Below, one piece after another: positions 1,452 through 50,191 of a DNA stretch of 64,000 nucleotides. A program made the position numbers and the translations under genes. Positions within the stretch are counted from its first letter, which is position 1. Each line of letters starts with the position of its first letter. A model generated the notes under the pieces. It made no database searches and was not told the DNA's origin. It saw only the letters and a list, made by a program, of their open reading frames with translations. Source of the stretch: Callorhinchus milii (Eukaryota); NCBI RefSeq assembly GCF_018977255.1, contig NW_024704742.1:24802001-24866000 (forward strand), given 5' to 3'.

Positions 1452-3264
1452 CTGTAGAAAAACAGGGAGAATAACAATACTATTAGTGCAGTGATACAAA
1501 CAGCAACAGTAAACAAACAACTTGCCAGCACAGAACATAGTTTAGTTTCAATATAATTGTACAGCTCGGACTTAATAATAATAATAATTGTTGCATTTGA
1601 TGTAGCACTTTTCAAAACCTCTAAACGTCTCAAAGAGCTTCACAGGATATACTGTAAAGTGAATTGACTATATTTGTGGGCGAAATGCAGCAGCCAATTG
1701 CGCACAGTAGTGTCCCACAAACAGTCGTGGATTGAAATGACTTATTTTATTATTGTTTTATTTTATTGAGGGATTACTATCAGCCGTGTGGACTTCTCTA
1801 CTTGTTAGGACTCTGACTTGCAGGGTTCAAGTGCCACTGATTAGACAGACAATCTTGGTCAACCATCAACAGTGCTTTTGATTAGATCACAAGATGATTT
1901 AGATGAAGAAGGCCCTTCAGTCCATCCAATCTCTTCCCTCCAGAAAACCCGCCCTACCATCCCCCATCATGTCAAGCTGCTTTTTAAGTGAATCCAGTGT
2001 TCTAACCTTTCTTGGCAACTCGTTCTGTTGAATACTCCTTTACATGTAAATTCAGAATTAACAAAAAGGGCCAATAAGAAGGAAGTCGGGAAGTACAAAA
2101 GGACACTGGGAGTGGGACAAAGTTTGTAGTTTACAGTGTTAGATTGACAAATAAAGACGCTACTAACACAACCTTGATTTGGATCAAGATATATTAAACA
2201 TTCCAGTCTTGATTACGATCTAAGTATTGTAAATCTGAGTGGATTCCATGTGTCTCTCCAGAAATAGTTCAACCCCAAGAAATCCTGTCTTATTTCTCAT
2301 CCAAGGAAGATAGCTTTTGGACATAGTATAAGGTGAAGGGGTGACTGGACCCACTGGAATTCAAATCCACAACCTCTAGTCTCAAATCTAACTAGCTACC
2401 TGGGATGTTGCCCAGAATCATACATAGAAACAGCACTCAAGCCTGTTCCACCATTTTATAAGATCATGGATGATCTGTACCTCAAGTCCAGTTACGCGCC
2501 CTTGCCCCATATCCCTTAATACCCGGACCTAACAAATAACACACTACCTATCAATTTCAAAATGGATAGCAATGCAATATAAGCTGTTTTAGTAACTGAA
2601 GCCACCGTGATACATTACAGCTTTAAATCAAGCTTATTCTTTGGAATATAATTCTTTATCTGAATTATTTGCAACATTAACATTATTATACTTATAGTGC
2701 ATCTAATTTCCACCAATTTTCTTATTAAAATTAATTAATTTAGCCATACAAGGACTCAAATGCAAAGATAAAACTCTGTACACAAGCCTCTGACTACTAA
2801 TTAATATTTAATGATAGAACAAAGTTGATAGGATCGTCAGCTTCTGTTCTGACTATTAGCAATTTGAAGGCAGTATAGTAGGTCATTTCATATATTTTTT
2901 AAATTTTAAAAATTTAGTTTGTTGTTGAGTTAGCTGCACCAGAGCATATAAATGTTAGTGTAATTTGTGTTGTAGAAAGTGTTGCTGACTTCATTAAGGC
3001 TGTGAAATTATGTCAGCAACACTTTCTGCACATAACACTCAGTGCACATGAAGTGACGCAAGCGGAAGTTGGTCATTTTTCACGCTTTGTTATAACTCAG
3101 CCTCTGAGATATTGGACCTAGGTGAACGTGTTATAACAGGGTTGCTCTGCATTACTGTAAGAGTAGGATTAATAACAGATTTAAAATATTTGTTGCACAT
3201 CACCAACATTTTTCCTCAGAAAAGGAGCATTCAATAGTGTTAATGAGCATTAGGTTTAACTTAC

Positions 3265-18126: not shown

Positions 18127-18158
<32 letters not shown>

Positions 18159-18275
18159 AGATGGTTGTGTGTGTGTGTGCGTGTATGGGGGTGATGGCTG
18201 TGTGTGTGTGTGTGTGTGTGTGTGGGGGGGGGGGGGGGTGATGGGGGTGATGGGGGGCTATGTGTGTGTGTGTGA
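17180..18275. repeat. Compound (GT)n/(G)n minisatellite at the start of DCHS2 intron 1
   Basis: Many variants of tgatggggggctat(ggtgggct)(gt)n(g)n over about 1.1 kb. Confidence 0.95.
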
Positions 18276-18285
18276 CCTGCCTTAC

Positions 18286-20499
18286 CTGCAGGACGCTGGT
18301 ACCGGGTGGGACGCGCTCCCGCACGGACGCGCTGTACACCTGCCGCTCGAAGATCGGCTCGTTGTCGTTCACGTCGTCCACCAGGAGCAGGACGGAGGCG
18401 GTGGACGACAGGGGCGGCTCCCCCAGGTCCCTGGCCTCCACCACCAGGAGGAACGCCGCCTGCCTCTCCCGGTCCAGGCACAGCCGGGGGTCCGCCGCCA
18501 AGATGTCGCCGCTCTCCGGGTGCACCCGGAAGTAACCCCCGCCCGCTCGCACCGCCCCGCAGTGCGCATGCTCCTCGCCCCCGCTCGCCACGTGCTCCTC
18601 ACGGCCGCTCTGCGCGTGCTCGTCGCTCCCGCGCCGCGCATGCGCCCCAATCCCGCCCTGAGTCACCCGCCGGCGCCGGCTCCCGCTTTGCGCACGCGCC
18701 TCACCCCCCCTCGCGACGACCCGCCGGCTCCCGCTTTGCGCATGCGCCTCACCCCCACTCGGGACGACCCGCCGGCTCCCGCTTTGCGCATGCGCTTCAC
18801 CCCCACCCGGTGCGGCCCGTTGGCTCCCGCTTTGCGCACGCGCCTCACCCCCACCCGGTGCGGCCCGTTGGCTCCCGCCGCGCGCGCGCACCTCGCCGCC
18901 GGCCGCCGCCGCCGCCTCGCTCAGCACGCGGTAGCGCACGGCTCCGTTGCGCCCGCTGTCGGGGTCGAGGGCCCGCACGCGAGCCAGGGCCCTGCCCCCC
19001 AGCGGCACCCCCTCGGCGGTTCGCGCGCGGTACAGGTGCCCGCGAGGGAAGGCCGGCGCGTGGTCGTTGAGGTCGGAGAGCCGCAGGCGCAGCGGCAGGC
19101 GGCCGGCGAGGGGCGGCGAGCCCCGGTCGCGGGCCGTCAGCACGAGCCGATGGACCTCGCGCTCCTCGCGGTCCAGGGCGCCGCTCACACACAGCAGGTA
19201 AACCGACTCAGCCACGCGCCGCAGCGAGAACCGTCCGCCGCCGCCGCCGCCGCCATCTTCCTCCTCGTCTCGCAGAGTCACCAGGAGCCGCCCGTTGTCT
19301 CCCAGGTCGGGGTCCGTCGCCGAGATCCTGGCCACCGGCTCGCCCGGCGCCGCCCCCTCCGACACCAGCGCCCGGCCGCTCGGGCCCAGGTACATGACGC
19401 TGAGGCTCGGCGCGTTGTCGTTCACGTCGAGGAGCCGCAGCGACACAAAGGCGGCGGCGGCGGCGGCGGCCGCGGCCTCGGGCGGCGAGTCGCGCTCCAC
19501 CGCCCGCACCACCAGCCGGTGGACGCCGCGCCGCTCCCGGTCCAGCGGTCCGCTCACGCTGATCACGCCGCTCTCGGCGTCGATGGAGAAGGGCGGGCCG
19601 GGGGCCTGGCCGGCGCCGCCGCCGCCGCCGTCGCGGTCGATCCGGTAGGTGAGCAGCCCGTTGCTCCCCTGGTCCGGGTCGCTGGCGTGTACCTGCAGCA
19701 CCCTGGTGCCCGGGGCGGCGTCTTCCCGCACCCAGGCCTCGTACTCGGTCTGCCCGAACCTCGGCGGGTTGTCGTCGGCGTCCAGCACCTGGATGTCCAA
19801 TCGCGCGGTCGCCGTTCTCCGGGGAGTGCCGCCGTCGAAGGCCTCGATGGTGAGGGAGTAAGAGTCCACGGTCTCGCGGTCCAGGGGCTGCAGCAGCACC
19901 AGGTCCAAGCCCAGGCCGCTCGCTCCCCTCCTGGACTGAAGCTGGAAGGTGCCCGGGTTTCCCCCGGTGATCAGGTAGCCCTGGGTGCCGAACTCACCCG
20001 CGTCCGGGTCCCGGGCTCCGTCCAGCCGGAATGCGACCCCGACCGGGGTCTGCTCTGAAATGTTGAGCCGGATCGTGCCCCCGGGGAAGACCGGGGCGTG
20101 ATCGTTCACGTCCTTCACCCGCACCCGCACCCGGACCACGTGGCCGGTCGGAGTCACGGCCACGAACGCGTACCGCTCCGTGGTCTCCCGGTCGAGCACC
20201 TTCGCCGTCTTTATTATCCCCGTCGCCGCATCGATGTGCAGGTCGCGGAAGACGAGAGATTCGTGGCTTTCCGAGATAAAGTACCCGCTGCTCGGCGTCC
20301 CCTCGGGCAGTCCGGCGCTGATGTCTCCCACGAGGGTTTCTGGCGGCTGCCCCTCGTCCACAGACAGACTTAAATCGTACGCTTGACCGGTCTGAGAAGT
20401 CCCGAACAGCACCACCATTTGGAAGAGTAATTTTGCGAAGTCGTACCTTTGCTGGTGGAAGCAGCAGCGAAAGTGCGCTGCCATGTTCTGTTGGTCCAT
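18286..20499 (-). CDS. DCHS2: Dachsous-2 protocadherin, coding exon 1 (signal peptide, cadherin repeats EC1-EC5, start of EC6)
   Basis: ATG at 20499, 738 codons, donor CAG|GTAAG at 18286/18285. Repeated cadherin motifs (LDRE, DxD, DVNDH/DVNDN). Adjacent to PLRG1 as in other vertebrates. Confidence 0.93.
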
Positions 20500-21010
20500 C
20501 AGAAACGTACCCTTTTATATTCGCGAAATGAACTCCACTGGACTCGAGGAGATTAGAGAGTGTGCCAGTTTCTCTGCGTCTATACGTCTCCAGTACCAAG
20601 TGTTAAGAAATCGACGCACACGGTGCTAAAGTGGCCGTGGTGCAGAGTGTACCTGTGTAAAAAAACCCCGTCGTCTTGTCCTGCCCCCAGTGAACTTGAC
20701 AAGCGTTATGAAAGTCCATTGCCGGTGTGCGCGCCCGGGCTCCTCTTCCGCGCAAATCCCTTCTCGCCCTTCGTGGACCTTTGGTGATTTTTGCGCCGTA
20801 AAAGCGGAGACTTCCCGGTCACCCGAAAGTGCGTGTTAGCCGAGGGTGATCGGTGCGGAATACTGGACCGCTCGCCACCGACCCTCTCTCCGCAACCAAC
20901 TCGCCGCACCCGCTCCCCTCCCGTCTCTATCTCACTGCGGGTGACGCACACCCACCGCCATGAACTCCGGCTGTCAAGAGGGAAAACATGCAGATCGCCA
21001 CTGCACCGCT
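18290..21010. promoter_or_regulatory. CpG island over the DCHS2 promoter and exon 1
   Basis: Very high GC and CpG density against an AT-rich background. Confidence 0.85.
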
Positions 21011-23100: not shown

Positions 23101-23907
23101 ACTGACAGCATCAGCATCCAAGGCTGCACTCTCCACCTCTCAAAGCCAATCAGGAACCTCGGGGTTCTGTTCAACCCTGAGCTGTCCTTTCTTCCTCATA
23201 TCCGCGCCACAACTGGCACTGCCTTCCATCATCTCCGAAACATCGCCAGACTACGGCACTACCTCACCCCTCACGCTGCTGAAACTCTGATCCACGCCTT
23301 TATCACCTGAAGGCTGGACTATGGGAACTCTCTCCTCGTCGGCCTTCCCGGCTCCTCCCTCCACAAGCTGCAGGTCATTCAGAACTCTGCAGCTCGTGTA
23401 CTGTCCCGCACCAGGCTTCGGGACCACATCACTCCCACCCTCGCTCGCCTCCACTGGCTCCCCATCCCCCAGAGGATCGATTTCAAGATCCTCATCCTCA
23501 CCTACAAGGCCATTCACGGCCTTGCTCCCTCCTACCTCTCCGACCTACTATCCCCCTACCTACCTGCCCATACCCTCCGTTCCTCTGGCTCCGGTCTGCT
23601 CTACATCCCCCGCCCCAACCGCCCTACCATCGGTGGCCGGGCCTTCAGCCTCTCAGCCCGAGGCTCTGGAACTCCATCCCCAGTGCCTTCGCCGCCTCCT
23701 CCCTTTCCTCCTTCAAGGCCGGTCTCAAGACCTTTCTCTTTGACGTGCCTTCAGCTCCCCTCTCGACTCTCTACCCCCTCCTCGCTCCCTCCCTTCCCTC
23801 CCCTCACCCTGACCATTTCCCCCCAAGGCTCGGGTCCCGACCCAACTGTCCAGCGCCTTGGGACATCCTCCCAACGTGAAAGGCGCTCTATAAATGCAAT
23901 CTTGTTG
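23101..23907 (+). mobile_element. 5'-truncated L2 LINE inserted into a SINE head
   Basis: RNLGVLFNPELSF...HLRNIARLRHYL; same 3' tail as the other L2 copies. Confidence 0.88.
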
Positions 23908-25335
23908 AGTGCTCTAATCACTAAGCTGCAGGACTCCAGGTTTAAGTAAAGTCTGTAGTCATTCTAAGCCTTTCAACCGTCTGAGCTGATCTGACAAGGC
24001 AAACTACTGCTTTGCTTGAAAAAATGAGAATCTGTAGAAAAGGCCAGTCTTTTTTTTGCGGTTCACAATAGTGAAGCAAGATTAAAATAAAATCTAAACT
24101 TTTGGTGCATATTGTAACATTACCTTTTCAGATTTCAGTAATGTCATTTGTGGCACTTTCAATGTGCAAAATAATAATGTGGGCAATACCTAAGAATACA
24201 TTTTCAGGCATGCAAACGTCAAGGCTGATAAGAGAAACAAGTTTTAAATTTTGGGAGGGGTAGAAGAACCTTTGCTGGTCTTTTACAAGTGCTGACAGTT
24301 CTGAAAAAATTGTTTTAAGAGATGGTCATTCACTTTATGAGGAAATCCGTTGGGAGTGGGAAAAGCTTATTTGAAGCTTCAACATTAAATCCACTCGTTC
24401 CAAGATATCAAGCACTTCAATATCAGAATCATTATAGGGAAGTTTATGATAAATTAGAGAAACATGTAGTACAGTATATGGAAATACAGTATTTTAGGGT
24501 AGTTTATTGATTACCAATAAAAGGCTATGAAAATTATACTGTTCCATCCACATTAAAATCAACATCTCAAAACAATGAGGTTAGAAAACTGACAGGCATA
24601 TTTCGATAGTTATTCAATTACAATCATTCAATTGTTCATTTAAGTGAAACAAGTCATCGCAGATAGAACTAAAATACAATTTCAGTAGGTATTTGCTGTA
24701 TTGGGGTATAAAAAGGGGAGGCTTTTAAGATCATTCACACATTGTGAATGCAAAGATACGTAATAGGTTAAACCCCTTGACTAAGCAGTGTAGCCACAAA
24801 TTCTAGATAACAAATGGATTAAGCAAAAACTTTAAATAGAAATTTATGAATATGAAATACACAATTTTTGTACAGAAATGTTTATTATAGGAAAACAATT
24901 TACAACAGCATTGCTATGATGAGTTAAAAACATAATTTGACAATGTTTCTCGTGGCTTGTACAGTAATCTATTGGTCAGAGACAAATTGTAACAATTGAC
25001 TTTGTGCAGCCCATTGATGTGGATTGGTAGGATGCTGGTTTGCACCTTCAATTTCCCACATGGCAGGACACCAATATTTGCTGCGATATCATGGAATATG
25101 TTGAGATGACAGGCATTTTACTAATAAATGGGAGGGGGAATAAAAAAATGGAGAACTTTCACATCTAGCAACTAACTGGTCACATATTGTCAAGTTCTGG
25201 GAAGCAGTCCAAGTCCACTTTTGTGTAAAGGAATAGTTGGGGAAGAAATCGGGAGCAGGGGAGGAAAAAAAAGAGCCTTATGAAAACAAACAAAAAAAAC
25301 AAATGCAACATAACTATTTTTAATGTCAGAGTAAT

Positions 25336-34995: not shown

Positions 34996-35309
34996 CTGAT
35001 GAAAATAAAATACAAATTAAAAAAACTTTATACAATAAGAAACGGTTGTTGAATTGAACAAATTGAAGATTATACCTGCTCACGTGGCACCACGGTTTAG
35101 CAGAGCTATTAAGGGTATGCCTTTAATTTTCCCATTTAGCATGGTCATCCCAGTATAGAACAACACTGCACAAGGACCAAGTGCTTACCCCGCAGTGTTA
35201 TACTCCTGACGTGAAAGGCGCTATAAAAATGTAATTCGTTGTGGTTGTTGCAAAAACTGAGGGAGACCAAAACCAGGGCCCATCAATATAAAATAGTCAT
35301 AAATAGATC

Positions 35310-36133
35310 AACAACAAGATTTCATTTATATAGCGCCTTTCACGTCGGGAGGACATCCCAAGGCGCTGGTCAGTATACAGCATTTCAGACCCGAGCTGGG
35401 GTCAAGGAGGGAGAAGAAAGGGGAGGGGAAAGGGGGTGGCCGATGGGATGGTCGAAGAGGACGGTTTTGAGGTGGGACTTGAAGGAGGCTAAGGAGGGCG
35501 CGAGGCGGAGTGATTGGGGGATGGAATTCCAGAGGTTGGGGGCAGAGTGGCTGAAGGCTCTCCCGCCAATGGTGGGGCGGGTGGGTCGGGGGATGTGGAG
35601 CAGGCCAGAGCCGGCTGAGCAGAGGGAGCGGGCAGGTTAGTAGAGGGTTAGGAGTTCGCAGAGGAAGGGTGGGGCGAGGCCATGGAGGGCTTTGTAGGTG
35701 AAGACCAGGATCTTGAACTGGATCCTCTGAAGGATAGGGAGCCTATGGAGTCGAGCGAGAATGGGGACGATGGGGTCACAGAGTTTGGTGCGGGAGAGGA
35801 CACGGGCTGCAAAGTTCTGGATTAGCTGCAGCCTATGGAGGGAGGAGTTGGGAAGGCCAACAAGCAGGGTGTTTGCATAGTCGAGCCTGGATGTGGCAAA
35901 GGTATGAACAAGAGTTTCAGCGGCCTGAGGGGTGAGGTAGTGGCGGAGTCGGGCGATGTTACGGAGGTGAGGGGAAGCAGAGCGGGTCATGGCTTGGATG
36001 TGGGGAAGAAAAGACAGTTGAGGGTCGAACAAGACACCTAGGTTCCTGGCTGGCTTGGTGAGTTGTTGTGTGCAACCATGGAGGTTGATGCTGCCAGAGC
36101 CTGAGGTGCAGAGACGCTGGCGCGAACCAATCA
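35310..36133 (-). mobile_element. 5'-truncated L2 LINE
   Basis: ORF 35637..36134 matches the L2 ORF2 C-terminus; tail near 35310. Confidence 0.88.
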
Positions 36134-36400
36134 AATAGGGAAGTTAGAAGAAATTTCTTCACACAGAGAGTAATGGGAACGTGGAACATGCTGCCACAAG
36201 GAGCTGTTGAGGCAAATAGCATAGATGTATTTAAGGGAAAGCTAAATAGGTACATGAGGGAGAAAGCAATAGAAGGTTATGCTTGAAGGCTTAGTTGAGG
36301 AAGGGCAGGAGGAGGCTCATGTGGAGCATAAACACCGGTATAGACCAGTTGGGCCAAATGGCCTATTTCTATGCTGTATATTCTAATGTATTCTAATGTA
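36134..36400 (+). mobile_element. CR1-type LINE 3' fragment
   Basis: ttcttcacacagagagta...tggaacatgctgcca...tttaagggaaagcta motif and a short (attctaatgt)n tail. Confidence 0.7.
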
Positions 36401-37043
36401 ACTGTACAATTCATTATCACGAACAACTAATATCATGTGAGATCCTATATTCTGATTCTACGATTCTGTGAGCATCCACAGGAGTCAGTGGACACAGCCC
36501 AATTGCCAGCTATATGAATCCAAAGCCAAAGCCATACACAAACAAAAAGGAAGTCTTGAATTTAGTATTATTTTTATTCACACAAAAAAAGGTACTGATT
36601 CGGGTAATTACACATTATACAAATACGATTATGGGGCTCAACCAGCAAAACCCAGGTTGTGATTTTAACATTTGTATAATAGGCGATTGAATCCCTTCAA
36701 TGCACAAATACACCATACTGGAATTTAAGTTATCCTTTACCCTTTGTGAGGTATCATACAAATATTGAAAATAAATCCTTCCCAACATTTAAAATGGATA
36801 AAAAATTATTTTAAATAAATAAGACAAAACTTTTTTTTTTACTCACAACTGATGTGATACAACTCCATTGATGTCCACAGTTAAACCGATCAGTATCAAA
36901 CTGTGGGCATCGCATGGGGTGATGAGGGCTTGAAAACGCAGGCTGGATTTTTAGCATGCGGAACTGTGGAATTTATTTTCGGACCGCTAATTCCAAATTC
37001 CAGATATCTGGGGTCAGGATAGTTGGGGGTTTACTGTACTTAC

Positions 37044-37150
37044 CTTTTCTCATCTATAATGACGGGCTTGGCGTGATCAGCTACAAACATGTCATGAGTC
37101 CTTTTCAGTGATCTGAACACTAACGTGTGCACAGAGTGCTTCTGCACCTC
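37044..37150 (-). CDS. PLRG1: PLRG1 exon 2
   Basis: [35 protein letters not shown], the conserved PLRG1 N-terminus; cag/gtaag. Confidence 0.95.
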
Positions 37151-37389
37151 CTGAAACAAAAATGAAAATGTTTCAATTTAATGTAGGAATCTGAACTAAA
37201 CTTGAAATGCAACTCAAGTGATAATTAAAACAATGTAATTGTATAGAGAAAGTACAAATAAACAAAATGTACGAGGTAATAATGCTACATTTAGCTTGCA
37301 AATAACATTCAGAAATATCTGAAATTGTATCCATTAAACAGACTCAGGCTGTTGGGGTCTTCATCAATATTGATAATTATATTATTTAA

Positions 37390-39275
37390 CAATACAACAA
37401 CAAAATTACATTTGTATAGCATCTTTCACGTCGCGAGGACGTCCCAAGGAGCTGGACAGACAGAGTTACAGACCCGAGCTGAGGGTCGGGATGGACGAGA
37501 CGGAGGGACTGAGGGATGGAGTTCCAGAGGGTGGGTGCAGAGTGGCAGAAGGCCCGCCCGCCGATAGTGGGGCGAGCAAGGCGGGGGGCATGAAGCAGCC
37601 GGAGACCGCTGAGTGGAGGGAGCGAATAGGGTGGTGGGGAGTTAGGTGGTCGGAGAGGTAGGGGGGGAGCAAGACCGTGGAGGGCTTTGAAGGTGAGGAC
37701 CAGGATCTTGAACTGTATCCTCGTGTGATGGGAAGCCAGTGGAGTTGGGCGAGGATGGGGGTGATAGGGTCGTGGAGCCTGGTGCGGGAGAGGACACAGG
37801 CTGCAGAGTTCTGGATGATCTGCAGCCTGTGGAGGGAGGAGTTGGAGAGGCCGACAAGCAGTGGTTGCATAGTCGAGCCTCGATGTAATGAAGTCATGTA
37901 TGAGGGTTTTGGCTGCCTGCGGTGTGAGACAGTGTCGGAGCCGGGGGATGTTGCGGAGGTGGGGGAAGGCAGAGTGGGTCATGGTGCAGATGTGGGGTAG
38001 GAAGGATAGTTGAAGGTCAACCAACACCCCAAGGTTCTGGACTGGCTTAGTAAGATGGAGTATGAAACCATGGATGGTGATGCTGTTAGCGCCTGAGATG
38101 TGGAGGCGCTGACAGGTGCCAATCAGGAGAGCCTCGGTCTTGTTGAAGTTCAACTGAAGAAAGTTAGCTCTCATCCAGGACTTGTTGTCTGACAGACATT
38201 CTGTCAGGACAACAGTGGTCCTGGAATCAAGGGTGGAGGCAGAGAGGTAGAGTTGGGTGTCATCCGCTTACTATGGAAGTTGACCCCATGTCTGCGGATG
38301 ATGTGAACAAGAGAGAACATACAGATATTGAAGAGGAGGGGACCAAGGACAGAGCCCTGAGAAACACCGCACAATATAGTGCGGGGGATAGAGAAGAAGC
38401 CGTTTAAGGAGATGAAGTGCAGGAGGTGTGAGAGGTACGATCTGAACCAATCAAGGACAGCGCTGTGGAGGTTGAAGTAAGAGGAGAGGTGATGAGGATA
38501 GAATGGTCGACAGTGTCGTAAGCAGCAGAGAGGTCAAGGAGGATGAGGAGGTAGAGGGGGCCCTGGTCGCAGTTGGACAGAATGTCATTTGTCACTTTGA
38601 TCAGGGCTGTTTCTGTGCTGTGGGTGACATAGAAGCCCAATTGGAGGGGTTCGAGAAGGGAGTGGCGGGAGAGGAAGGAGCGTAGCTGAAAAGCAACAAC
38701 TCATTCCAGGACCTTGGAGAGGAAGGGGAGGTTGGAGATGGGGTGGTAGTATGGGAGTAAAGAAGGGTCCAGGGAGGGCTTTTTAAGAATAGGAGTGATG
38801 ACAGCGATTTTTAAATGGGTAGGAACAGTACCAGAGGACAGGGAGTTTTACCATGTCAATGAGTACAGGGGCAAGGAGATGGAGCTGGGAGGTAAGGATG
38901 GAGGTAGGGATGGGGTCGAGGGAGCAGGTGGTGGGTTTCATACGGATTATGGTGGTGATGAAAGAAGAGGGGGAAGCAGGTTCAAAGGTGTGGAGGGAGG
39001 GATGGGTAGGGGTCAGGTGGGAGGGGGAGATGGGGAGGGGGTAGCAGATGCAATGGCAGAGGCAGCTGAACGGATTTCCCTGACTTTGGATTCGAGGATG
39101 TCCATCATCGCCTCGCAGTTCGCATTTGAGGTGAGGATGGGTGAATTGTGAGAGGGTGGGCGGAGGAGCCAGTTTGTGATGGAGAAGAGGAGCCTGGGGT
39201 TGTCCTTAGCCTCCAAGATTGTCTTGGAGCAGAATGACGATTTAACGGACGATTTGACAATATCCGACATACAGC
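37390..39275 (-). mobile_element. Degenerate L2 LINE in PLRG1 intron 1
   Basis: [14 protein letters not shown]...[22 protein letters not shown]; colinear with the copy at about 14400-16335. Confidence 0.9.
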
Positions 39276-40900: not shown

Positions 40901-43900
40901 GAAAAACGCCTTTGCGGGATGAGTGTCTTTTTTTTTTAAAAAAATGTTTCATTTAAACCTGCAAAACGTTTGGGTTTTTCTTCTTTGAGGACCTTTTCTG
41001 GCACAGTTTCAAAATCGCTGACCTAAATTGGCCACTCTCTTACCCACGAGCAGACGAGGCGTAATACTGGGCTACTTTTGGACCGGCATCTGATTGACTT
41101 TTTTTCTACAGACTCTTTTAATTTCTGGCAACTCTGCTACCCAGCACTTTACCCTTGCAAGCATCCGGTAACAGGCAGAGGAGGAGACTGGATCATCTCT
41201 TACATTTTATAATAACAACAACTTGCAGGATAGCATCTCGGAGCACTTAACAGTAATGTCCAATTCAATGTCTAAATTAATCCACCAAAAGGTATCCGGG
41301 TACCTCTGTACCGTTGCCGAGCGGAGAGAGTCGATAAAGTTGTTGACAGTCGTCTTAAGTCTTAGTCTTGATCTTTTTTCTTTAGAAGCTGGAATATGGT
41401 TTGGGACTCGCAAGTTCCAACTCCCAATCTCTTCTAATTCTCTTCCCGAATCGATCTCTCTTTCTCCAGTTTGTAGATGACAATTCACCTACTTCATCTT
41501 TCACAAGATGTCTCTACTTTGTCTCTACTTTTCCCTCTGAAAAAAATGGGAGTAAGCCCCCACCCTTCTCAGGCAGGCTGTTTTCCAATGAGAAAAGAAC
41601 TGATAGGGAGAAAGAGAGATGGACAACTTTTTTTTGTTTTGGCAGTTCTCTGCGTGTAATCAGAAGCTGACCTTCGCCGGGTCAAAAAAATATACATTTA
41701 TCTTCGCTAACTCTAATCAGCACATGTATCCTCTCAGGAGCCCTAAACTAGTCATTAAACCAAATAACTTTATGTAAGGATTATAGGTAGGTTACATTCT
41801 AAAAGAATATAAAAATTAATTAAAAGCCTTAAAAAACATCAAGCATCACAAATCTAATTTCAGATAATATTTAATTCATTAGTTACAGAATCCTCACACT
41901 AGGTGTCAGGTTTGATCCACAGTAGTACTTCTGGTCCCTGACCAGGACCGCCTTCCTCCACTTCCACCACATTACCTGCCTTTGACTGTACCTTATCCTA
42001 GGTGCAGCCGAAACACTTGTCCATGCCTTCGTCACCTCCTGACTTCAGAATCCACCTGATCCAAAACTTGGCCGATCGTATACTCACATTGCATACTAAA
42101 CATGTGAAGCGTTGTTAAATCAGATTATAGTTAGGTTGATGTGAAGACTACATTTATCATCTTAGACTATGTGATTCCAAGTCCTGATATAGGGCTCAAA
42201 CCCACAACCTTCTAATTCAGAGGCAAGAGTGCTACCACTGAGTCAGACTAGACTCAAATTTAAATTCACAAGTGCCTTGGCTCTTGACATGGGTATGCCC
42301 CTACAGAGACAGAGTGCATATTCTATTCCAGACAAAGGGAAATTTCCATATGTAACTGGCATATCTGACAATCTCAGTCAGGTTTGGATATTCTTAAGCA
42401 TGGAATGGGTTTCTGCGTACAACCATCTGACCCAAAATATCAAATGTGACCAAAAATATCAAATGTGGGCAAAAATGAGCCAATATTTTGCTAGCTATTA
42501 GTCTACATATCAGATTTATTAAACTGCCATTTTTACTAGAAATCACAAGAATGGTTTGTGTTATGAATGTAAATATCACACGGATGCAATAGTAGATAGG
42601 CTTTTGAGGAGGAAAGATATACTGTAGAGGACCAATGGATGAAATCAGTGCGAAGGGGGTTTTAACCTGCAACTGATTTGACCTGGGTGTGTTTGAGACT
42701 GGCAGTGAGTATCAGGATTGAGTAATGTTCCAGGCGCAATTAAATCTAGTAATTTCTGATTAAATTCTACTTATAGATTTGAAACAAATGGGTAATTTTT
42801 GCGGTATTAATGGATTTCTTCATCAGGAAATTTGAATGGGGACTCCTTCCAGTAAATGGAGGTACATTGCACACATCACTCCACTCAAATAAAGTCCCCT
42901 CCAAAACTAGATTGAGCTGTAAAAGTATTATCAAAAGTTGGCATCATGCACTTTCAGCTTTCTTAATTTAAAAATCAATTTGCAATACTGCAAAATTCAT
43001 CCCAAGGTATGTAACTGTTTTGATATTCCTATTGGGTATTGCAGTCTAATCCACTATATAGCAAAAGAAAGATTATCAATCGCTACAGAGTGCTAATTTC
43101 ATGATTCTAGTCAAGTGTGTGCAAGTGAGGATGTATTGAGCAGAAATTTGAAATCCTCTATAATACTAAGCCTTCCATTTGATATAAAGCATCATCACAT
43201 CTTTGACTGTCTCAAAGCACTTCATAGAATATACTGTAAAATTAATTGTCTGTATATTTTGTGACCGAAACGCAGCAGCCAATTGCACACAGCAGTGTCA
43301 CAAAACTATATACTTGGAAGTTAACTTTAAATTCAACCAAAAGGATTTTTTTTGTAACTGCTGCTCAGAAAGACAAGGTGCGAGCTGACCAGAAATGACC
43401 AGGAAGAGAAGAAAGAAGCTTTATCTCTTTGTTGCATAAATCATTTTATTGATGAGCATCGGGTAAGCACAACTTAAATTAGGTAATAACGGGGATGAGT
43501 TTATTGTAGAACCAATGACGATGAATGAAAATCTGTTCGGGAAGTTGCCTTGTCTGTCTTTATGTGCTGCAGAATGAAACAAGGACACATTAAAATTCTG
43601 TAGAAAGCATATTGTAGTTTTCAAAAGAGAAATGGAACAAAATCAGTCCAACCAGCATTACATTTTACGTCACATAGATAGATAACCAGAACTTCTCCTT
43701 CATGTTTGTTTTCCTCCCTTCTCAGCTATACCCCTATTGGAATTTTGATGGACTGTTTTATTGGTCCCATCCATTGTCATTGGATTTTCTATTATCGTCA
43801 GTCAAAGAGAGCAGAATCAAATCTCAAGGATGGTGTGAGTTAAAACCTTTTGGGGCATAATTCATTTGGAGTTCACTAACCTCATTAACTAATACAGAAA

Positions 43901-45818
43901 ATTCTTTCTGTGCTGTAAATTTCGATGATTCTGTGACTGACTGGATATAGAGTTAGAAAGACAGCTGTGGGTTGAACAAAATGTCTCTGTATATGCTTAT
44001 CTAATTCATAGGAACATAGGAATTAGGAGCAGAAGTAGACCAATCGGCCCCTCGAGCCTACCCCACCATTCAATAAGATCATGGCTGATCTTCTAACCTA
44101 ACTCCATCTGCCCACCTTTTGCCCATATCCCTTAATCCCTCTATCCTTTATAAATCTATCAATCTCAGTCTTGAGCATCTACAGCCTGCTGGGGTAAAGA
44201 ATTCCATAACTTATTTTTTAAATTCTCCCAATTGACGCTGCTTCAACAGACATTCTTCAAAACAAGCCTCCTAACTTCTTTCACATTTTGAATTAGAATT
44301 TTAAATTTGTACTTTCTGATCCTTAAATCATCTACCAGCAGAAACAGTTCTTCACAATTTATCCTCTCAAATCATTTCATTATCTTAATCATCTCTACCA
44401 CATCACCCTTCAATCTACTCTACTCCAGTGGAAAAAGTCCTATTCTGTCCAATCCTGAAGAGTTACCCAGAGGAATAGAGCATAAGTTCCTTTAAGACCC
44501 ATCTCAAGACCTTCCTGTTTGATCATGTTTTGGATCACCCTGCTTTCCCCCTGCCCTCTATCCTCCCCAATCCCGCCCCCAGCTCTGGTCCAAAACACTG
44601 ACTGTCCAGCACCTTGGGACATCCTCCCAACGTGAAAGGCACTATGCAAATGTAATTTTATTGTTGTTGTAAATCACAGGAGATGATACTGAACAAGGAT
44701 CGATCACTGGTTCATCCCCATCTGGATTATCCAAATTTGGCCATTATATTACAATAAGGACATCTCGGTATTGGAAAGGGTACAGTGAAGAGCAATTATA
44801 TTTATGGTCGGAATTGTAGGTGGAGATATGAGGAGAGACTAAACAAGCTGAGAATGTACACATCTGTGAAGATAAGGCTCAAGTGAATCCTTTTTGATGA
44901 ATTCAAAATCGTAAATTGAACTCTAATAATAATGATCCTTGTATTTGATCTAGTGCCTTCTCACATCAACTTAACATCAAAAAGCGCAATATAGGATTTA
45001 TTGTATAGTGACTGTCTATTTGGAGAGCAAACATCACAGCCAATTTGCTTACAGGACACAACCATGAAGTGAATGACCAATTTTTATCTGGAGGATTCTT
45101 GGCGAGGATACTGAGGAAAACCCCTTTTCTTTTTGAATAGTACCATTGGATCTTTAATGTATAGCTCAACAGGTAGTCGGAACCTCAGTTTCATATCTCA
45201 TCTGAAGAATGACACTTAATAAATCTTTGCACGTGATATAGGGAGGATGTCTCAAAATGTTTCATAGGATTTACTCTGATGTGTATTTTGTAGACTTCTG
45301 ACAATGCTTCAACACTGTATTGGAGTTTCAGCCTAGGCTCTGAACTTAAAATCCCAATCATATGTTGAAAATGGTCATAAACTCTACCACAAACAGTCAG
45401 CAATCAAGCACAAAAGAAACTTTGATTGAATTACACAGAGAGACCGTGGTGAATATATATAAGGCACTACTGATGGAGGCAGATTGGGCCATAAAATTCA
45501 AGCGGGAATTAGATAGTCATATGTTAAAGAAATTGGTTGAGGGGCTTTACAGATATTAATATGTATATTTTTTTCAATAGTTTGGATGGTCTACAAGGTT
45601 TTTTGTTTCTTACCTCATTCTGTACAATAGCGTGATCCAACTGGAGGCCCAAGGGCCGATTTCACCCCCCCCCCCCCCTTCCTTCCAACCCATTTCATCT
45701 GTCCCTCAGCAGCCAAAAGAGTGGCCTACCCTGCACATTAAAAAAAAGCAGTCTCAAAGCATACTTAATCGACTTACCTTTCCCAATGTAGCTTTCATGC
45801 TATATCTTGTTATTTCTA

Positions 45819-47879
45819 TTAGATGTGACCTTTCCGGTCAGGAATATCTTCTCCTCTTTCATCCATAGACATGCGTTGCATGGCACTTTTTAACCTTCTT
45901 TGAATTGATTGTTGATCTGGAGAGTCACCTCCTTGGGTGGACCAGGATACTGAATGTGTTGTACGACTTCCAACAACTGAACTATCTCCATCGCTTACAC
46001 TACCACCGGCGTCAGGTAGTGGCTGTCTCGGATCAAAAGTATGAAAATCCCTGAATTCTTCGAACCTTGCAAAGGGATCGAAATCATCTGTGCCTCTCAC
46101 TGCATGACTTTCAGTAACAATAGAGTGTTTGCCTGTTTTGGTGCCTGAGGATGTTAAAGCACTAAAATCACGTGTACTTCCACCTTTACCTGTTTTAGTT
46201 CCTGTTACTGTTGTAAGCCTCCTGGACCCCATACCTGTGGTCCCAGGTTCTGTCCCAGATTGTAATCTAAGTCTGTCAAAATGTGAGCCCATAAATTCCG
46301 GAAATTCCGAAATTTCAGGAAAACCATCTGAGCCGCTTGTCATTGTGACTCTTTCAGTGGTTTTGCCATTTTTTGTAACAGTTGTTTTTGTGTAGGTTCT
46401 GGAACCATGTGTTGTGTGGAACCGTGTATCATCAATATCACCTCTGCCTCCTGTACCCTCTCCAAGACCATGTGCAACTCTGCTTTCTTCCCTACCACCG
46501 TCCCCAATTACTATGCCACTTGTCTGTTTCCGATCAACAGTGTGAAAATAACTGTGATCTGAAAAAGGTTCAGGTGTCCCAGCAACACCCCTGCTACTAC
46601 CCACCAGTCCACCACCTAATGAGGTTGTGGAGCCTGCCTGATGATGAAACGATCCATCTGTTTTGGTTGAGTAGCTTGTACCAGAGGTAGAAGCCCCACC
46701 TCTTTTGGGAAAGTAACCTGTATCAGAGGTAGAAACCCTATCTCTTGTGTGTAAGTAGTCTGTACCAGAGGTGGAAGCCCCACCTCCTGTGGTTGAGTAG
46801 CTTGTACCAGAGGTAGAAGTCCCATCTCTTGTGGGTAAGTGACCTGTATCAGAGGTAGAAACCCTATCTCTTGTGTGTAAGTAGTCTGTACCAGAGGTGG
46901 AAGCCCCACCTCTTGTGGTTGAGTAGCTTGTACCAGAGGTAGAAGTCCCATCTCTTGTGGGTAAGTAACCTCCTGTATCAGAGGTAGAAACTCTATCTCT
47001 TGTGTGTAAGTAGTCTGTACCAGAGGTAGAAGCCCCACCTCCTGTGGTTGAGAAGCTTGTACCAAAGGTAGAACCCCTATCTTTTGTGGGAAAGTAACCT
47101 GTATCAGAGGTAGAAACCCTATCTCTTGTGTGTAAGTAGTCTGTACCAGAGGTGGAAGCCCCACCTCTTGTGGTTGAGTAGCTTGTACCAGAGGTAGAAG
47201 TCCCATCTCTTGTGGGTAAGTAACCTGTATCAGAGGTAGAAACTCTATCTCTTGTGTGTAAGTAGTCTGTACCAGAGGTAGAAGCCCCACCTCCTGTGGT
47301 TGAGAAGCTTGTACTAAAGGTAGAACCCCTATCTTTTGTGGGAAAGTAACCTGTATCAGAGGTAGAAACTCTATCTCTTGTGTGTAAGTAGTCTGTACCA
47401 GAGGTAGAAGCCCCACCTCCTGTGGTTGAGTAGCTTGTACCAGAGGTAGAAGCCCCACCTTTTGTGGGAAAGTAACCTGTATCAGAGGTAGAAACCCTAT
47501 CTCTTGTGTGTAAGTAGTCTGTACCAGAGGTAGATGCCCCACCTCTTATGGGTGTGGAGGTTGCACTATGAATGGAAGCCTCACTTCCACCTTTAGGAGT
47601 TTCTTCTAGGGAAAATATTTGGAAATCTCTTTCAGCCCAGAATTCAGGATATCTACTGTCAGTCATTCCAGATTTATGAAGAGAGTCTGGATCAGATTCC
47701 TTCAAACTCCTCATTTTGAACACGTGCGTTGGCTTTGAGTATTCAATCCTGTCGACTGACATGCTATGTAATGATCCGAGTTTTTTGTCCAATTGGGCGT
47801 CACTCTCCCCGCTGATGCTGTAGGCAAAGGACTTGGCACAAGATCCTTTGCAGGATCGTATCTTGATGTCAATGTCAAC
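45819..47879 (-). CDS. FGA: Fibrinogen alpha-type chain, exon 5 (second disulfide ring, alphaC repeats, alphaC region, stop)
   Basis: ag|VDIDIKIRSCKGSCAKS... open for 686 codons to TAA at 45821-45819. Confidence 0.93.
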   Translation of the reverse strand, partial: VDIDIKIRSCKGSCAKSFAYSISGESDAQLDKKLGSLHSMSVDRIEYSKPTHVFKMRSLKESDPDSLHKSGMTDSRYPEFWAERDFQIFSLEETPKGGSEASIHSATSTPIRGGASTSGTDYLHTRDRVSTSDTGYFPTKGGASTSGTSYSTTGGGASTSGTDYLHTRDRVSTSDTGYFPTKDRGSTFSTSFSTTGGGASTSGTDYLHTRDRVSTSDTGYLPTRDGTSTSGTSYSTTRGGASTSGTDYLHTRDRVSTSDTGYFPTKDRGSTFGTSFSTTGGGASTSGTDYLHTRDRVSTSDTGGYLPTRDGTSTSGTSYSTTRGGASTSGTDYLHTRDRVSTSDTGHLPTRDGTSTSGTSYSTTGGGASTSGTDYLHTRDRVSTSDTGYFPKRGGASTSGTSYSTKTDGSFHHQAGSTTSLGGGLVGSSRGVAGTPEPFSDHSYFHTVDRKQTSGIVIGDGGREESRVAHGLGEGTGGRGDIDDTRFHTTHGSRTYTKTTVTKNGKTTERVTMTSGSDGFPEISEFPEFMGSHFDRLRLQSGTEPGTTGMGSRRLTTVTGTKTGKGGSTRDFSALTSSGTKTGKHSIVTESHAVRGTDDFDPFARFEEFRDFHTFDPRQPLPDAGGSVSDGDSSVVGSRTTHSVSWSTQGGDSPDQQSIQRRLKSAMQRMSMDERGEDIPDRKGHI
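46653..47537 (-). repeat. Coding tandem repeat in the alphaC connector: 21 x 42-nt units arranged as 7 x 126-nt triplets
   Basis: ASTSGTDYLHTRDR / VSTSDTGY(F/L)PT(K/R)xx / xSTxxTS(Y/F)STTxGG repeated seven times. Confidence 0.95.
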
Positions 47880-48829: not shown

Positions 48830-48975
48830 CTCCAGTCGGGTGATTTCTTTGAATTGTTCGAATATACCTCTTTTCAGAGATTGTATTTTGGTGGTTTGAC
48901 GATTGATTCTCTCCTGCAAGCTGAGAAGTCGGGTCTTGAGTGAATCCACCAGCTGATAGTAGGTAGTACCAGAGT
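48830..48975 (-). CDS. FGA: Fibrinogen alpha-type chain, exon 4 (coiled coil)
   Basis: DSGTTYYQLVDSLKTRLLSLQERINRQTTKIQSLKRGIFEQFKEITRLE; 146 nt, phase 1/0. Confidence 0.95.
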
Positions 48976-49014
48976 CTAAAGGTGCAGAAAAAGACAATAA
49001 TTCGATTAGAAACG

Positions 49015-49316
49015 TTTTGAATCCCGGGCAGGGTGAAACCTTACACAAGTTTCCCTACTCCACACGCCTCTGTTTACCTAGTAGTAAGTAGAAAACCGGT
49101 TGTTAGTTGATTGGTTAGCTTTCCGGGGTAATCATCCCTCAAAAAAATCTGGTCACTCAATCCACAACTGTTTGTGGGATACTGCTATGTGTAATTGTCT
49201 GCCGCTTTTCACCCACAAAATAGACAATCAATCCTCTTTTCAGTATATTCTCTGAAGCAATTTGAGACATCTCAATGAGTGATTGGGCATTATATCAAAT
49301 TCAAGGATTATTATTC
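49015..49316 (+). mobile_element. tRNA-derived SINE filling most of FGA intron 3
   Basis: Family body and tail; head truncated. Confidence 0.8.
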
Positions 49317-49359
49317 AAACAACGTTATGAAATGGACGGGCAGTAGAGGAAACTCTCAC

Positions 49360-49543
49360 CTCCCACTTCGTTCAGAGTTTCCCTGATTCTTCTGGCCGCA
49401 TCGGTGACGCTCACATGGGTAGATCCATATATTTTTGAGTAGTCGTCCAACATCTGTCGAATCTTCCTTACTCTGTCAGCCGTTTTGCGATCTTCATGGT
49501 CCATCAGCCCTTGGATTCGGCATCCGGATGGGCATTTCGGACC
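49360..49543 (-). CDS. FGA: Fibrinogen alpha-type chain, exon 3 (disulfide ring, coiled coil)
   Basis: GPKCPSGCRIQGLMDHEDRKTADRVRKIRQML...; 184 nt, phase 0/1. Confidence 0.95.
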
Positions 49544-49762
49544 CTGTGCCAAGTAATTCAGATTTTTTTTAAAAAATTGCTTTGCAACATGTCATTCATT
49601 CAATGCATGACATTGAATGAATGATATAAAAAGTAGTTTCAGACACAAAAAATAGAATCAATTCACTTCACAGTATATTCTCCTCGAAGAAATGATAAAG
49701 TGCTATATGAAATTCAAGTAATTATTATTGATCTCGCAAACCGAGATCTAAATGCCACCTAC

Positions 49763-49882
49763 CCAGTCCTCATCAGAGCACAAAGAGAAGCCACTCTCAT
49801 CTGAGCATCCCAGTTTAGTAGATCTACTGCGATCTTTGGCTTGTGTAGGGCGGGCTCCTCGAGCTGTCAGCTGGGATTCTGA
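49763..49882 (-). CDS. FGA: Fibrinogen alpha-type chain, exon 2 (fibrinopeptide A, knob, N-terminal cysteines)
   Basis: SESQLTAR-GARPTQAKDRSRSTKLGCSDESGFSLCSDEDW|gtagg; the CSDEDW motif is typical of alpha chains. Confidence 0.9.
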
Positions 49883-50137
49883 CTGAGAGAAAACATCAAA
49901 AGTAAGGTTCGTCTTTGCAGATCAAATGTCTATTTCTATCTAAGATTTTTACTGAATCAAACAAGGTTCGTAAGGAAGATCTGATACACGTTTCACTCAC
50001 TCAAAGCCTTGATCGTTTGTTTCTAAGTGGTACCAAAGAAATACGATTGGTGTTTAACTGTGTCTTTTCTGTGCTGGTCAAAGTAAATGAGTGAAATCCG
50101 CCTTTCGGCAGTGTGCAGAGCAAGAAGGGAAACCCAC

Positions 50138-50191
50138 CCAGTGTAGAAGCGTGCAGCATACTAACAACCCCAGCACCAGAGCCGATCTCAT
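50138..50191 (-). CDS. FGA: Fibrinogen alpha-type chain, exon 1 (signal peptide)
   Basis: MRSALVLGLLVCCTLLHW|gtggg. 54 coding nt ending in Trp, as recalled for FGA exon 1. Confidence 0.85.

What the first reader, a model, noticed from the sequence alone, without database searches (positions are those of the whole stretch)
45772..45860. Vestigial alpha-E splice junction stranded behind the stop codon, with no alpha-E exon downstream
Seen: the CDS ends ...GEDIPDRKGHI-TAA. A perfect donor AAG|GTAAGT lies 41 nt later (45778/45777). In a shifted frame the bases before that donor read E-S-Y-I-G-K plus a phase-1 G. Known, from memory: in non-mammalian FGA, exon 5 ends like 'EDxPD..ARS...SYxGK|' at a phase-1 donor that splices to the alpha-E (fibrinogen-420) exon starting D-C. 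Seen: no minus-strand ORF resembling a fibrinogen-related domain lies between here and the PLRG1 promoter. Inference: this gene lost the alpha-E isoform through indels and stops plus exon loss, but kept the donor.
Basis: partly seen in the sequence, partly recalled or inferred. Interest (0 to 1): 0.75.

Follow-up and report, generated by a model that had tools for sequence, protein, structure and literature searches.

The report
Ancestral fibrinogen splice donor still used
In one of the elephant shark's two fibrinogen alpha genes, the splice site that once joined on an extra globular domain now lies behind the stop codon, yet it is still used to attach a short non-coding end piece carrying the poly(A) signal.

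Summary
The letters are as reported. On the minus strand the CDS ends ...GEDIPDRKGHI-TAA (stop 45821-45819), and 41 nt later comes AAG|GTAAGT (junction 45778|45777), preceded out of frame by E-S-Y-I-G-K+G. The window is Callorhinchus milii. The donor is homologous to the alpha-E (Fib420) donor: a second FGA gene about 30 kb away, outside the window, reads ...ADGYIGK|DCSDIIQKH into a single-exon fibrinogen-related domain. Twelve shark and ray FGAs, and teleosts, carry the same junction. No fibrinogen-related exon lies downstream of the in-window gene.

The donor is not vestigial. Contigs of three probable transcriptome runs from three studies join 45778 to 43566 (2211 nt skipped, GT..AG), and a probable genomic run does not. 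The target is a 139-nt single-copy, non-coding terminal exon (43566-43428) with AATAAA 14-17 nt before the contig ends. So this FReD-less paralogue kept the exon5/exon6 architecture as a 3'UTR intron, with the stop 41 nt before the junction, inside the canonical NMD-safe distance (inference).

The alpha-E form survives in the paralogue. A ~450-nt gene-conversion tract (exons 3-4) hides the age of the duplication. This is a new member of known kinds, of moderate interest.

The parts
45822..47879 (-). FGA-a exon 5, coding part (residues 169-854 of P0001), including the alphaC region with tandem repeats at 46654-47553
   Evidence: 686-aa ORF. (tblastn, 100% to P0001). (period 42 nt x 21.4 copies; 126 nt x 7 at 93%).
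45819..45821 (-). TAA stop codon of FGA-a, followed at once by TAG
   Evidence: No variant reported in any of the 4 runs.
45778..45818 (-). 41-nt 3'UTR tail of exon 5. Out of frame it still reads (H)ESYIGK+G, homologous to ...GYIGK+G of the alpha-E-bearing paralogue
   Evidence: 0 of 1000 shuffles reach the alignment score. There is a net +7 nt relative to FGA-b between TTCCTGA and the donor.
45772..45780 (-). Splice donor AAG|GTAAGT (exon ends at 45778, intron starts at 45777). It is the ancestral alpha-E donor and is in use
   Evidence: table 5: joint 43566-45778 in X1, X2 and X3, and 0 in X9..
43567..45777 (-). Intron 5, now a 3'UTR intron of 2211 nt with GT..AG ends, holding several high-copy repeat insertions
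   Evidence: skips 2211, ends CT..AC on the + strand; X9 depth spikes. (repeat matches at 44488-44670, 44924-45160 and 45236-45284)..
43428..43566 (-). Terminal non-coding exon 6' (139 nt) behind the acceptor ...ttcattctgcag|. It has AATAAA at 43505-43500 and 43450-43445. RNA contigs end at 43428-43431
   Evidence: table 8 (X1 43428-43560; X2 43431-43566 joined to 45778-46550; X3 43460-43566 joined to 45778-45874).. Single copy in the genome. No similarity to the FGA-b intron 5, exon 6 or 3' flank.
48830..49543 (-). FGA-a exons 4 (48830-48975) and 3 (49360-49543) with intron 3. This is a gene-conversion tract shared with FGA-b
   Evidence: exon 3 is 171/184 identical, exon 4 is 127/146, intron 3 is 84/91, and the flanking introns are about random. 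dS is 0.13 here against 0.40 in the start of exon 5.
49763..50191 (-). FGA-a exon 2 (49763-49882) and the coding part of exon 1 (50138-50191)
   Evidence: tblastn of P0001, 100%.

Best explanation
The window holds one of two fibrinogen alpha genes of Callorhinchus milii. I call the in-window gene FGA-a (minus strand, 50191-43428). It encodes the repeat-rich alpha chain and has no fibrinogen-related C-terminal domain. A paralogue, FGA-b, lies between FGB and FGG outside the window and keeps the alpha-E arrangement: exon 5 ends ...YIGK plus a phase-1 G and is spliced to a single FReD exon beginning D-C.

FGA-a descends from a gene of that type and has kept its six-exon architecture. Its reading frame now ends 41 nt before the exon 5 donor (TAA, then further stops, plus a net 7-nt length change). 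What lies behind the 2211-nt intron is a 139-nt non-coding exon that supplies the poly(A) signal. The old alpha-E donor is therefore a working splice site of a 3'UTR intron.

Shown here: the splice, the homology of the donor, the absence of a FReD exon, the paralogue, and the conversion tract.

Inferred: the donor is retained because 3' end formation depends on it, since no AATAAA or ATTAAA lies between the stop and the donor. Also inferred: the stop can sit where it does because a junction less than about 50-55 nt downstream of a stop does not trigger nonsense-mediated decay. Also inferred: the alpha and alpha-E functions, produced from one gene by alternative splicing at this donor in bony vertebrates, are divided between two genes in cartilaginous fishes.
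For: SPLICING., table 5: a joint from 43566 to 45778 skips 2211 nt with ends CT..AC on the + strand (GT..AG on the minus strand). It is seen in X1 (depth 22855.8, side 26), X2 (16.1, side 136) and X3 (10.2, side 97), which come from three studies, and in 0 contigs of X9, the run that covers all 30 bins as genomic DNA would. In table 8, X2 record 11 and X3 record 17 carry both sides with 0-2 other letters. X2 and X3 have no contigs on the unique intron bins 45278-45649. In X1 the intron contigs have depth 471-3231, against 18447 and more on exon contigs.

TERMINAL EXON; a polypyrimidine acceptor, AATAAA at 43450-43445, and RNA contigs of two studies ending at 43428 and 43431 while the DNA contig runs on (43276-43607).

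HOMOLOGY. Searches give the alignment to the FGA-b donor; 12 of 12 FReD-bearing cartilaginous-fish FGAs read ...YIGK or ...YVGK before the D/N-C start of the domain; the teleost alpha and alpha-E isoforms diverge exactly after ...DYVGK (Seriola, 474 shared residues).

NO FReD DOWNSTREAM..

PARALOGUE., and P0003 (750 aa; PF00147 and PF08702 in the listing).

IDENTITY; 100% to 'fibrinogen alpha chain [Callorhinchus milii]' (P0001, 854 aa).

NMD RULE. [quoted passage not shown] Both were seen only in the listing.
Against: All RNA evidence comes from assembled contigs of runs whose RNA nature is the tool's guess. Contigs cannot give isoform proportions, strand or true 3' ends. X1 also holds contigs across the whole intron, including the unspliced acceptor (record 2, 43540-44075), so some unspliced RNA or pre-mRNA exists. 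Table 5 left 49 further joints unshown.

The terminal exon shows no similarity to any part of FGA-b, so its descent from the alpha-E exon is not shown.

The NMD argument is inference: no NMD test exists for this species. The exonic conservation TACATTGG upstream of the donor goes beyond what U1 pairing needs and is not explained.

Confidence: 0.85

Rival explanations
1. One reading: the donor is a dead relic, stranded in the 3'UTR after loss of the alpha-E exon, and the mRNA simply ends nearby.
For: The stop lies upstream of the donor, the frame is shifted, and no FReD exon lies downstream.
Against:: the donor is joined to 43566 in the contigs of 3 of 3 probable RNA runs (three studies) and not in the DNA run; there is no poly(A) hexamer between the stop and the donor, and the first one in the intron lies 620 nt further on.
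Confidence: 0.03
2. The spliced form is a minor or regulatory isoform. The main FGA-a mRNA would read through the donor and end inside the intron, as the human alpha mRNA does, with the junction serving, for example, EJC-dependent control.
For: X1 contains contigs over the whole intron at depth 471-3231. AATAAA or ATTAAA hexamers exist in the intron at 45158, 45002, 44662 and 43762.
Against: In X2 and X3 only the spliced form was assembled, and the unique intron bins have depth 0. In X1 the joint contig depth (22856) exceeds the intron contigs by 7- to 48-fold. Contig depths are poor measures, so this rival is weakened, not excluded.
Confidence: 0.07
3. Origin rival A. FGA-a arose by a duplication private to the chimaera lineage, and it lost the FReD exon independently of the FReD-less 'alpha chain-like' genes of sharks and rays.
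For:: on the first 300 residues the two C. milii genes are sisters (100/99), nested with the elasmobranch FReD clade (98/97); a+b as sisters is not rejected even without exons 3-4 (p-AU 0.246). The FGA-a C-terminus ...DERGEDIPD resembles the FReD-type ...GEDLPD more than the elasmobranch FReD-less ...DETGxSDPS.
Against: The sister signal comes from a converted tract: intron 3 is 84/91 identical while the neighbouring introns are about random, and dS is 0.13 against 0.40. Without exons 3-4, FGA-b joins the elasmobranch FReD genes (94/92) and FGA-a falls outside. In the start of exon 5, FGA-a is 45% identical to FGA-b but 48-49% to the elasmobranch FReD-less genes. All 15 FReD-less proteins end in the same short segment.
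Confidence: 0.35
4. Origin rival B (preferred for origin). One duplication occurred in the stem of cartilaginous fishes and gave a FReD-less gene and a FReD-bearing gene. Later gene conversion in the coiled-coil exons made the C. milii copies look young.
For: as set out against rival A; the two Heptranchias genes share an identical 108-residue block, so conversion recurs; all cartilaginous-fish FGAs form one clade against bony vertebrates (100/100 and 100/99).
Against: The FReD-less genes form a grade, not a clade, in both trees. Their monophyly is merely not rejected (p-AU 0.242). No lamprey sequence was available and no outgroup rooting was done. An old loss makes the 17/18 identity around the donor harder to explain without constraint or a further conversion.
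Confidence: 0.6

Closest known systems
Human and bony-vertebrate FGA alpha / alpha-E (fibrinogen-420) alternative splicing
   Same: It uses the same donor position: a phase-1 junction after ...Y(I/V)GK leading to a single exon that encodes the FReD (alphaEC) domain. Teleost isoform pairs diverge exactly there. A passage of PMC5796141 states that alternative splicing of human FGA gives the extended A-alpha-E isoform, 1-2% of circulating fibrinogen.
   Different: In bony vertebrates one gene makes both forms, and the common alpha form arises by NOT using the donor. That is seen in the teleost models; for human it is recalled. In C. milii FGA-a the donor is used constitutively or predominantly, but behind the stop codon and onto a non-coding exon. 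The alpha-E form is encoded by a separate gene.
Lamprey fibrinogen alpha-1 / alpha-2 genes
   Same: There are two separate alpha genes, one repeat-rich without a globular C-terminal domain and one with it. UniRef even names P0002 'Fibrinogen alpha-1 chain-like'.
   Different: No lamprey sequence was in the trees. All cartilaginous-fish genes group together against bony vertebrates, which argues for an independent duplication. The lamprey comparison is from memory.
Division of alternative isoforms between duplicate genes (subfunctionalisation); the general concept is recalled
   Same: The two products of one ancestral alternatively spliced gene are now made by two paralogues.
   Different: Here the FReD-less copy kept the splice itself as a non-coding 3'UTR intron rather than losing it.
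3'UTR introns within the NMD-insensitive distance of the stop codon
   Same: An exon junction lies 41 nt downstream of the stop, under the canonical 50-55 nt rule (abstract of bioRxiv 10.64898/2026.06.26.734884, seen in the listing).
   Different: The origin is traceable: it was formerly a coding junction. NMD insensitivity was not tested.

Membership tests
Fibrinogen alpha chain gene (FGA) | N-terminal fibrinogen coiled-coil domain (Pfam PF08702) | tested here: met
   The precomputed Pfam column lists PF08702.16 for P0001 and P0002, which are 100% identical to the window's product.
Fibrinogen alpha chain gene (FGA) | Lies in the FGB-FGA-FGG cluster next to PLRG1 | tested here: met
   FGB FReD exons lie on the + strand at 61577-65644. 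An FGG-like gene lies on the minus strand at relative 100-107 kb. PLRG1 WD40 exons lie on the minus strand at 26.5-30.9 kb. FGA-a itself sits between PLRG1 and FGB, which is not the canonical slot; FGA-b occupies that slot.
Fibrinogen alpha chain gene (FGA) | Repeat-rich, fast-evolving alphaC region in a large exon 5 | tested here: met
   42-nt period x 21.4 copies; exon 5 is unalignable to the paralogue beyond its first 175 nt.
Alpha-E (Fib420) isoform / alphaEC exon | Exon 6 encodes a Fibrinogen_C domain (PF00147) in phase with the exon 5 donor | tested here: not met
   For FGA-a: no PF00147 or tblastn match downstream, exon 6' has no Pfam hit (protein 53), and the stop precedes the donor. 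For FGA-b, outside the window: met (E 1.7e-62).
Alpha-E (Fib420) isoform / alphaEC exon | Phase-1 donor after ...Y(I/V)GK | tested here: met
   The position and sequence are conserved in FGA-a (17/18 identical to FGA-b), but it is no longer in the reading frame.
NMD-insensitive 3'UTR intron | A spliced junction downstream of the stop codon | tested here: met
   the joint is seen in the contigs of 3 of 3 probable RNA runs.
NMD-insensitive 3'UTR intron | The stop lies less than about 50-55 nt upstream of the junction | tested here: met
   41 nt.
NMD-insensitive 3'UTR intron | The transcript is not degraded by NMD | not testable with these tools
   There is only the indirect hint of very high contig depth in X1, which the tool warns is a poor measure.
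Gene conversion between paralogues | A bounded tract, including neutral intron sequence, that is far more similar than the flanking sequence | tested here: met
   intron 3 is 84/91 identical, against 18-30 of 60 in the adjacent intron windows. dS is 0.13 against 0.40.

The most novel reading that the evidence does not exclude
In every cartilaginous fish the FReD-less fibrinogen alpha paralogue still splices at the ancestral alpha-E donor, and the rule that a stop must lie within about 50-55 nt of the last exon junction has fixed where the protein could be truncated. That would explain why all 15 FReD-less proteins examined, chimaera, sharks and rays alike, end in the same 11-17-codon segment before the old junction. 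It would make this a case in which mRNA surveillance has constrained a protein's C-terminus and preserved a 'fossil' splice site for more than 400 million years. The age is recalled, not computed here.
Probability: 0.3. Interest if true: 0.6.

Novelty: new member of a known kind. Interest (0 to 1): 0.45.

Why it matters
Three points matter.

First, this corrects a tempting misreading. A consensus donor behind a stop codon looked like debris, but it is the working splice site of a 3'UTR intron that delivers the poly(A) signal.

Second, it shows a third way in which vertebrates provide the alpha and alpha-E fibrinogen chains. Bony vertebrates use one alternatively spliced gene. Lamprey has two genes (recalled). 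Cartilaginous fishes have two genes in which the FReD-less copy keeps the old exon5/exon6 junction as a non-coding intron.

Third, it gives a concrete, datable example for two general questions: how alternative isoforms are parcelled out to duplicates, and how the NMD distance rule may limit where a new stop codon can arise.

It also warns that paralogue trees of the fibrinogen coiled-coil region are distorted by gene conversion. My searches found no paper describing two FGA genes in cartilaginous fishes. However, both genes are already present as automatic models in public annotation, so the genes themselves are not new.

Tried and rejected
(1) I looked for a degenerate FReD remnant downstream of FGA-a. 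A PF00147 scan of the genome and a tblastn of the FGA-b alphaEC domain with word size 2 and E up to 100 over relative -20000..114000 gave only noise below 45778.

(2) I tested descent of the terminal exon 6' from FGA-b's intron 5, exon 6 or 3' flank by local alignments against 200 shuffles. All four queries scored within the shuffles (51-129 of 200 reached the observed score). Descent is neither shown nor excluded.

(3) I asked whether exon 6' is a repeat. It is not: there is one match in the genome.

(4) I asked whether exon 6' was formerly coding. The phase-1 frame is open over the whole exon, but 1110 of 20000 shuffles are open too, and it has no Pfam hit. I rejected this as evidence.

(5) I tried to date the duplication with AU tests. 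Both hypotheses survive (p 0.242 and 0.246).

(6) A protein search with FGA-b exon 5 at 'near' lengths scored nothing because of the length filter. FGA-b was then found through P0001's N-terminus.

(7) The look-up of sequencing runs lists no holder on record as RNA; the RNA labels are guesses. I treat X1-X3 as transcriptomes because of their small size, their empty intergenic bins and the GT..AG joint that is absent from X9.

(8) Earlier notes of this scan gave nothing.

(9) The teleost 'FReD-less' hits first looked like a second gene. They proved to be isoforms of the same gene.

(10) I could not test expression and splicing of FGA-b, the genomic structure and synteny of the elasmobranch FReD-less genes, or lamprey sequences.
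Full report
OBSERVATION

On the minus strand the large exon of a fibrinogen alpha gene ends ...GEDIPDRKGHI, followed by TAA (45821-45819) and at once TAG. Forty-one nucleotides later (45818-45778) the sequence GAA AGC TAC ATT GGG AAA G is followed by GTAAGT (45777-45772). In the +1 frame this reads HESYIGK plus one base. The 9-mer AAGGTAAGT occurs twice in the whole window, against 0.71 expected. None of the four public runs laid on the region shows another letter or an indel between 45650 and 45900 (tables 3 and 4), so the stop and the frame are real.

WHAT THE GENE IS

The product is 100% identical to 'fibrinogen alpha chain [Callorhinchus milii]' (P0001, 854 aa). Its exons map to 50191-50138, 49882-49763, 49543-49360, 48975-48830 and 47879-45822. 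Exon 5 contains a 42-nt (14-residue) tandem array of 21 copies. FGB lies on the plus strand upstream, from about 60.7 kb.

THE DONOR IS HOMOLOGOUS TO THE ALPHA-E DONOR

A scan of the whole assembly with Pfam Fibrinogen_C found a full-length, single-exon domain on the minus strand just outside the window (C1:24879626-24880318, E 1.7e-62). I fetched the neighbourhood. It shows a second FGA gene, which I call FGA-b, between FGB and FGG. Its exon 5 ends ...DEIGQDFPDIFAHSTKVQKADGYIGK plus a phase-1 G, followed by GTAAGC. After a 535-nt intron comes an exon starting (G)AT TGT = D-C-S-D-I-I-Q-K-H. It is annotated as a 750-aa protein (P0003).

The 3' ends of the two genes align in three parts: GATGAAA..GGA.AAGAT.TTCCTGA, then a diverged stretch, then TACATTGG(G/A)AAAG|GTAAG. 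The non-coding 81 nt behind the FGA-a stop find their best match in 3 kb of FGA-b exactly at that donor (score 40; 0 of 1000 shuffles reach it). FGA-a is a net 7 nt longer between the two anchors, which explains the frame shift.

All 12 FReD-bearing shark, ray and chimaera FGAs examined read ...PD.(H)ARSF....KVQKI.GY(I/V)GK before the D/N-C start of the domain. Teleost alpha and alpha-E isoform pairs diverge exactly after ...DYVGK.

NO ALPHA-E EXON DOWNSTREAM

Neither the Pfam scan nor a deliberately permissive tblastn with the FGA-b domain finds anything on the minus strand between 45778 and 20 kb beyond the low end of the window. The best hit has E 7.8.

THE DONOR IS USED

I laid the contigs of three probable transcriptome runs (X1, X2, X3; three studies) and one probable genomic run (X9) on 41000-46550.
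- All three RNA-like runs contain a joint from 45778 to 43566 that skips 2211 nt with GT..AG ends on the minus strand. The sides are 26, 136 and 97 nt.
- X9 contains no such joint and covers all 30 bins.
- In X2 and X3 only the joined form was assembled.
- In X1, which is extremely deep on this gene, contigs also cover the intron, at depths 7- to 48-fold below the joint contig. This is consistent with pre-mRNA, although contig depth is a poor measure.

The downstream exon begins behind ...gtttcattctgcag. It is single-copy. It carries AATAAA at 43505-43500 and 43450-43445. It ends in the RNA contigs of two studies at 43428 and 43431, while the DNA contig continues; the tool rates such a coincidence as a weak hint.

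No poly(A) hexamer lies between the stop and the donor. The donor is thus the 5' splice site of a 2211-nt 3'UTR intron, and the terminal 139-nt exon supplies the 3' end signal. The word 'vestigial' does not apply.

MECHANISM AND ITS INFERRED PARTS

Shown here:
- the splice;
- the homology of the donor;
- the absence of a FReD exon downstream;
- the existence of a FReD-bearing paralogue.

Inferred:
(i) The donor persists because proper 3' end formation depends on it.
(ii) The stop can be tolerated 41 nt before the junction because this is inside the canonical 50-55-nt distance within which an exon junction does not elicit NMD. I saw that rule only in abstracts listed.
(iii) Exon 6' either replaces or is an unrecognisable remnant of the alpha-E exon. 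No similarity to FGA-b remains. Its open phase-1 frame is not significant.

EVOLUTION

In bony vertebrates one gene yields both alpha and alpha-E (a passage of PMC5796141 for human). In cartilaginous fishes there are two genes. FReD-less 'alpha chain-like' proteins of 470-600 aa and FReD-bearing proteins of 700-800 aa occur together in sharks and rays.

On the first 300 residues the two C. milii genes are sisters (100/99). This signal comes from a conversion tract:
- exon 3 is 171/184 identical;
- exon 4 is 127/146 identical;
- the whole 91-nt intron 3 of FGA-b is 84/91 identical to FGA-a, which also carries a repeat insertion there;
- the adjacent intron windows are random (18-30 of 60);
- dS is 0.13 in exons 3+4 against 0.40 in the first 100 codons of exon 5.

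With exons 3-4 removed, FGA-b joins the elasmobranch FReD genes (94/92) and FGA-a falls outside. The AU test rejects neither monophyly of the FReD-less genes (p 0.242) nor a+b as sisters (p 0.246).

The two Heptranchias genes share an identical 108-residue block, so conversion recurs. I favour one duplication in the cartilaginous-fish stem (about 0.6) over a private chimaera duplication (about 0.35).

All 15 FReD-less proteins end in the same segment, 11-17 residues before the homologous junction. This fits either a shared truncation or a positional constraint such as the NMD window.

COMPARISON AND NOVELTY

The closest known systems are:
- the alpha/alpha-E splicing of bony-vertebrate FGA, which uses the same donor with the opposite logic;
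- the two alpha genes of lamprey (recalled, not retrieved);
- the general phenomena of isoform partitioning between duplicates and of NMD-insensitive 3'UTR introns.

Both genes exist as automatic annotations. Six literature searches found no description of the two-gene arrangement or of the retained junction. That library omits most subscription journals, where the classic fibrinogen evolution papers appeared.

I rate this as a new member of known kinds, with interest 0.45. It is a clean, instructive case, but it is not a new principle.

VERDICT

The homology and the loss of FReD coding are right. The key adjective, vestigial, is wrong. The alpha-E function is not lost from the genome; it is carried by a neighbouring paralogue.

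Noticed in passing
G000:C1:24879611-24893198 (window-relative 77611-91198; L010, L011), minus strand: A second fibrinogen alpha gene (FGA-b, P0003, 750 aa) with a short, non-repetitive alphaC region and an intact single-exon FReD domain. It lies in the canonical slot between FGB and FGG. The in-window FGA-a sits in a non-canonical slot between PLRG1 and FGB, head to head with FGB.
   Followed up: yes
window 48830-49565 and L010 8413-8885: A gene-conversion tract of about 450 nt (exon 3, intron 3, exon 4) between the two FGA paralogues. FGA-a intron 3 carries an extra repeat insertion of about 293 nt.
   Followed up: yes
Proteins P0004 / P0005 (Heptranchias perlo): The FReD-less and FReD-bearing FGA genes of this shark share a block of 108 identical residues (positions 18-126) and then diverge. 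This suggests recent conversion in the same gene region as in C. milii.
   Followed up: partly
window 46654-47553, minus strand: The FGA-a alphaC region holds 21 tandem copies of a 42-nt (14-residue) unit, organised as 7 copies of a 126-nt unit with 93% matches. The UniRef model P0002 (769 aa) is 85 residues shorter than P0001 in this array, so the copy number differs between assemblies or models.
   Followed up: partly
window 47580-47879 vs L010 5595-5894: In the first 100 codons of exon 5, dN (0.475) exceeds dS (0.40) between the paralogues. This indicates relaxed or diversifying selection after duplication.
   Followed up: no
window 43428-43566, minus strand: Exon 6' is open over its whole length in the phase that the old junction would impose (AHKDRQGNFPNRF...). 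The other two frames are closed. 5.6% of shuffles are open too, so this is weak. It could hint at a formerly coding tail.
   Followed up: partly
window 45781-45790, minus strand: TACATTGG immediately upstream of the donor is 8/8 identical to FGA-b although it is non-coding here. That is more than U1 pairing requires. It could be a splicing enhancer, a small conversion patch or chance.
   Followed up: no
window 18127-20514 and 185-1541, minus strand: Long cadherin-repeat ORFs (796 aa in one exon) lie downstream of PLRG1. This is consistent with a DCHS2-like protocadherin, as in the human chr4 neighbourhood (that synteny is recalled).
   Followed up: no
window 14000-16300, 23300-23950, 35200-38300; also L009-L011: Many copies of LINE reverse-transcriptase fragments (RVT_1 hit at 38207-38533) and of a tRNA-like SINE are scattered through the introns and intergenic DNA of the cluster. 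Several lie inside the 3'UTR intron of FGA-a.
   Followed up: no
window 45667-45682: A run of about 15 G on the minus strand inside the 3'UTR intron. The X1 intron contig breaks there (45678).
   Followed up: no
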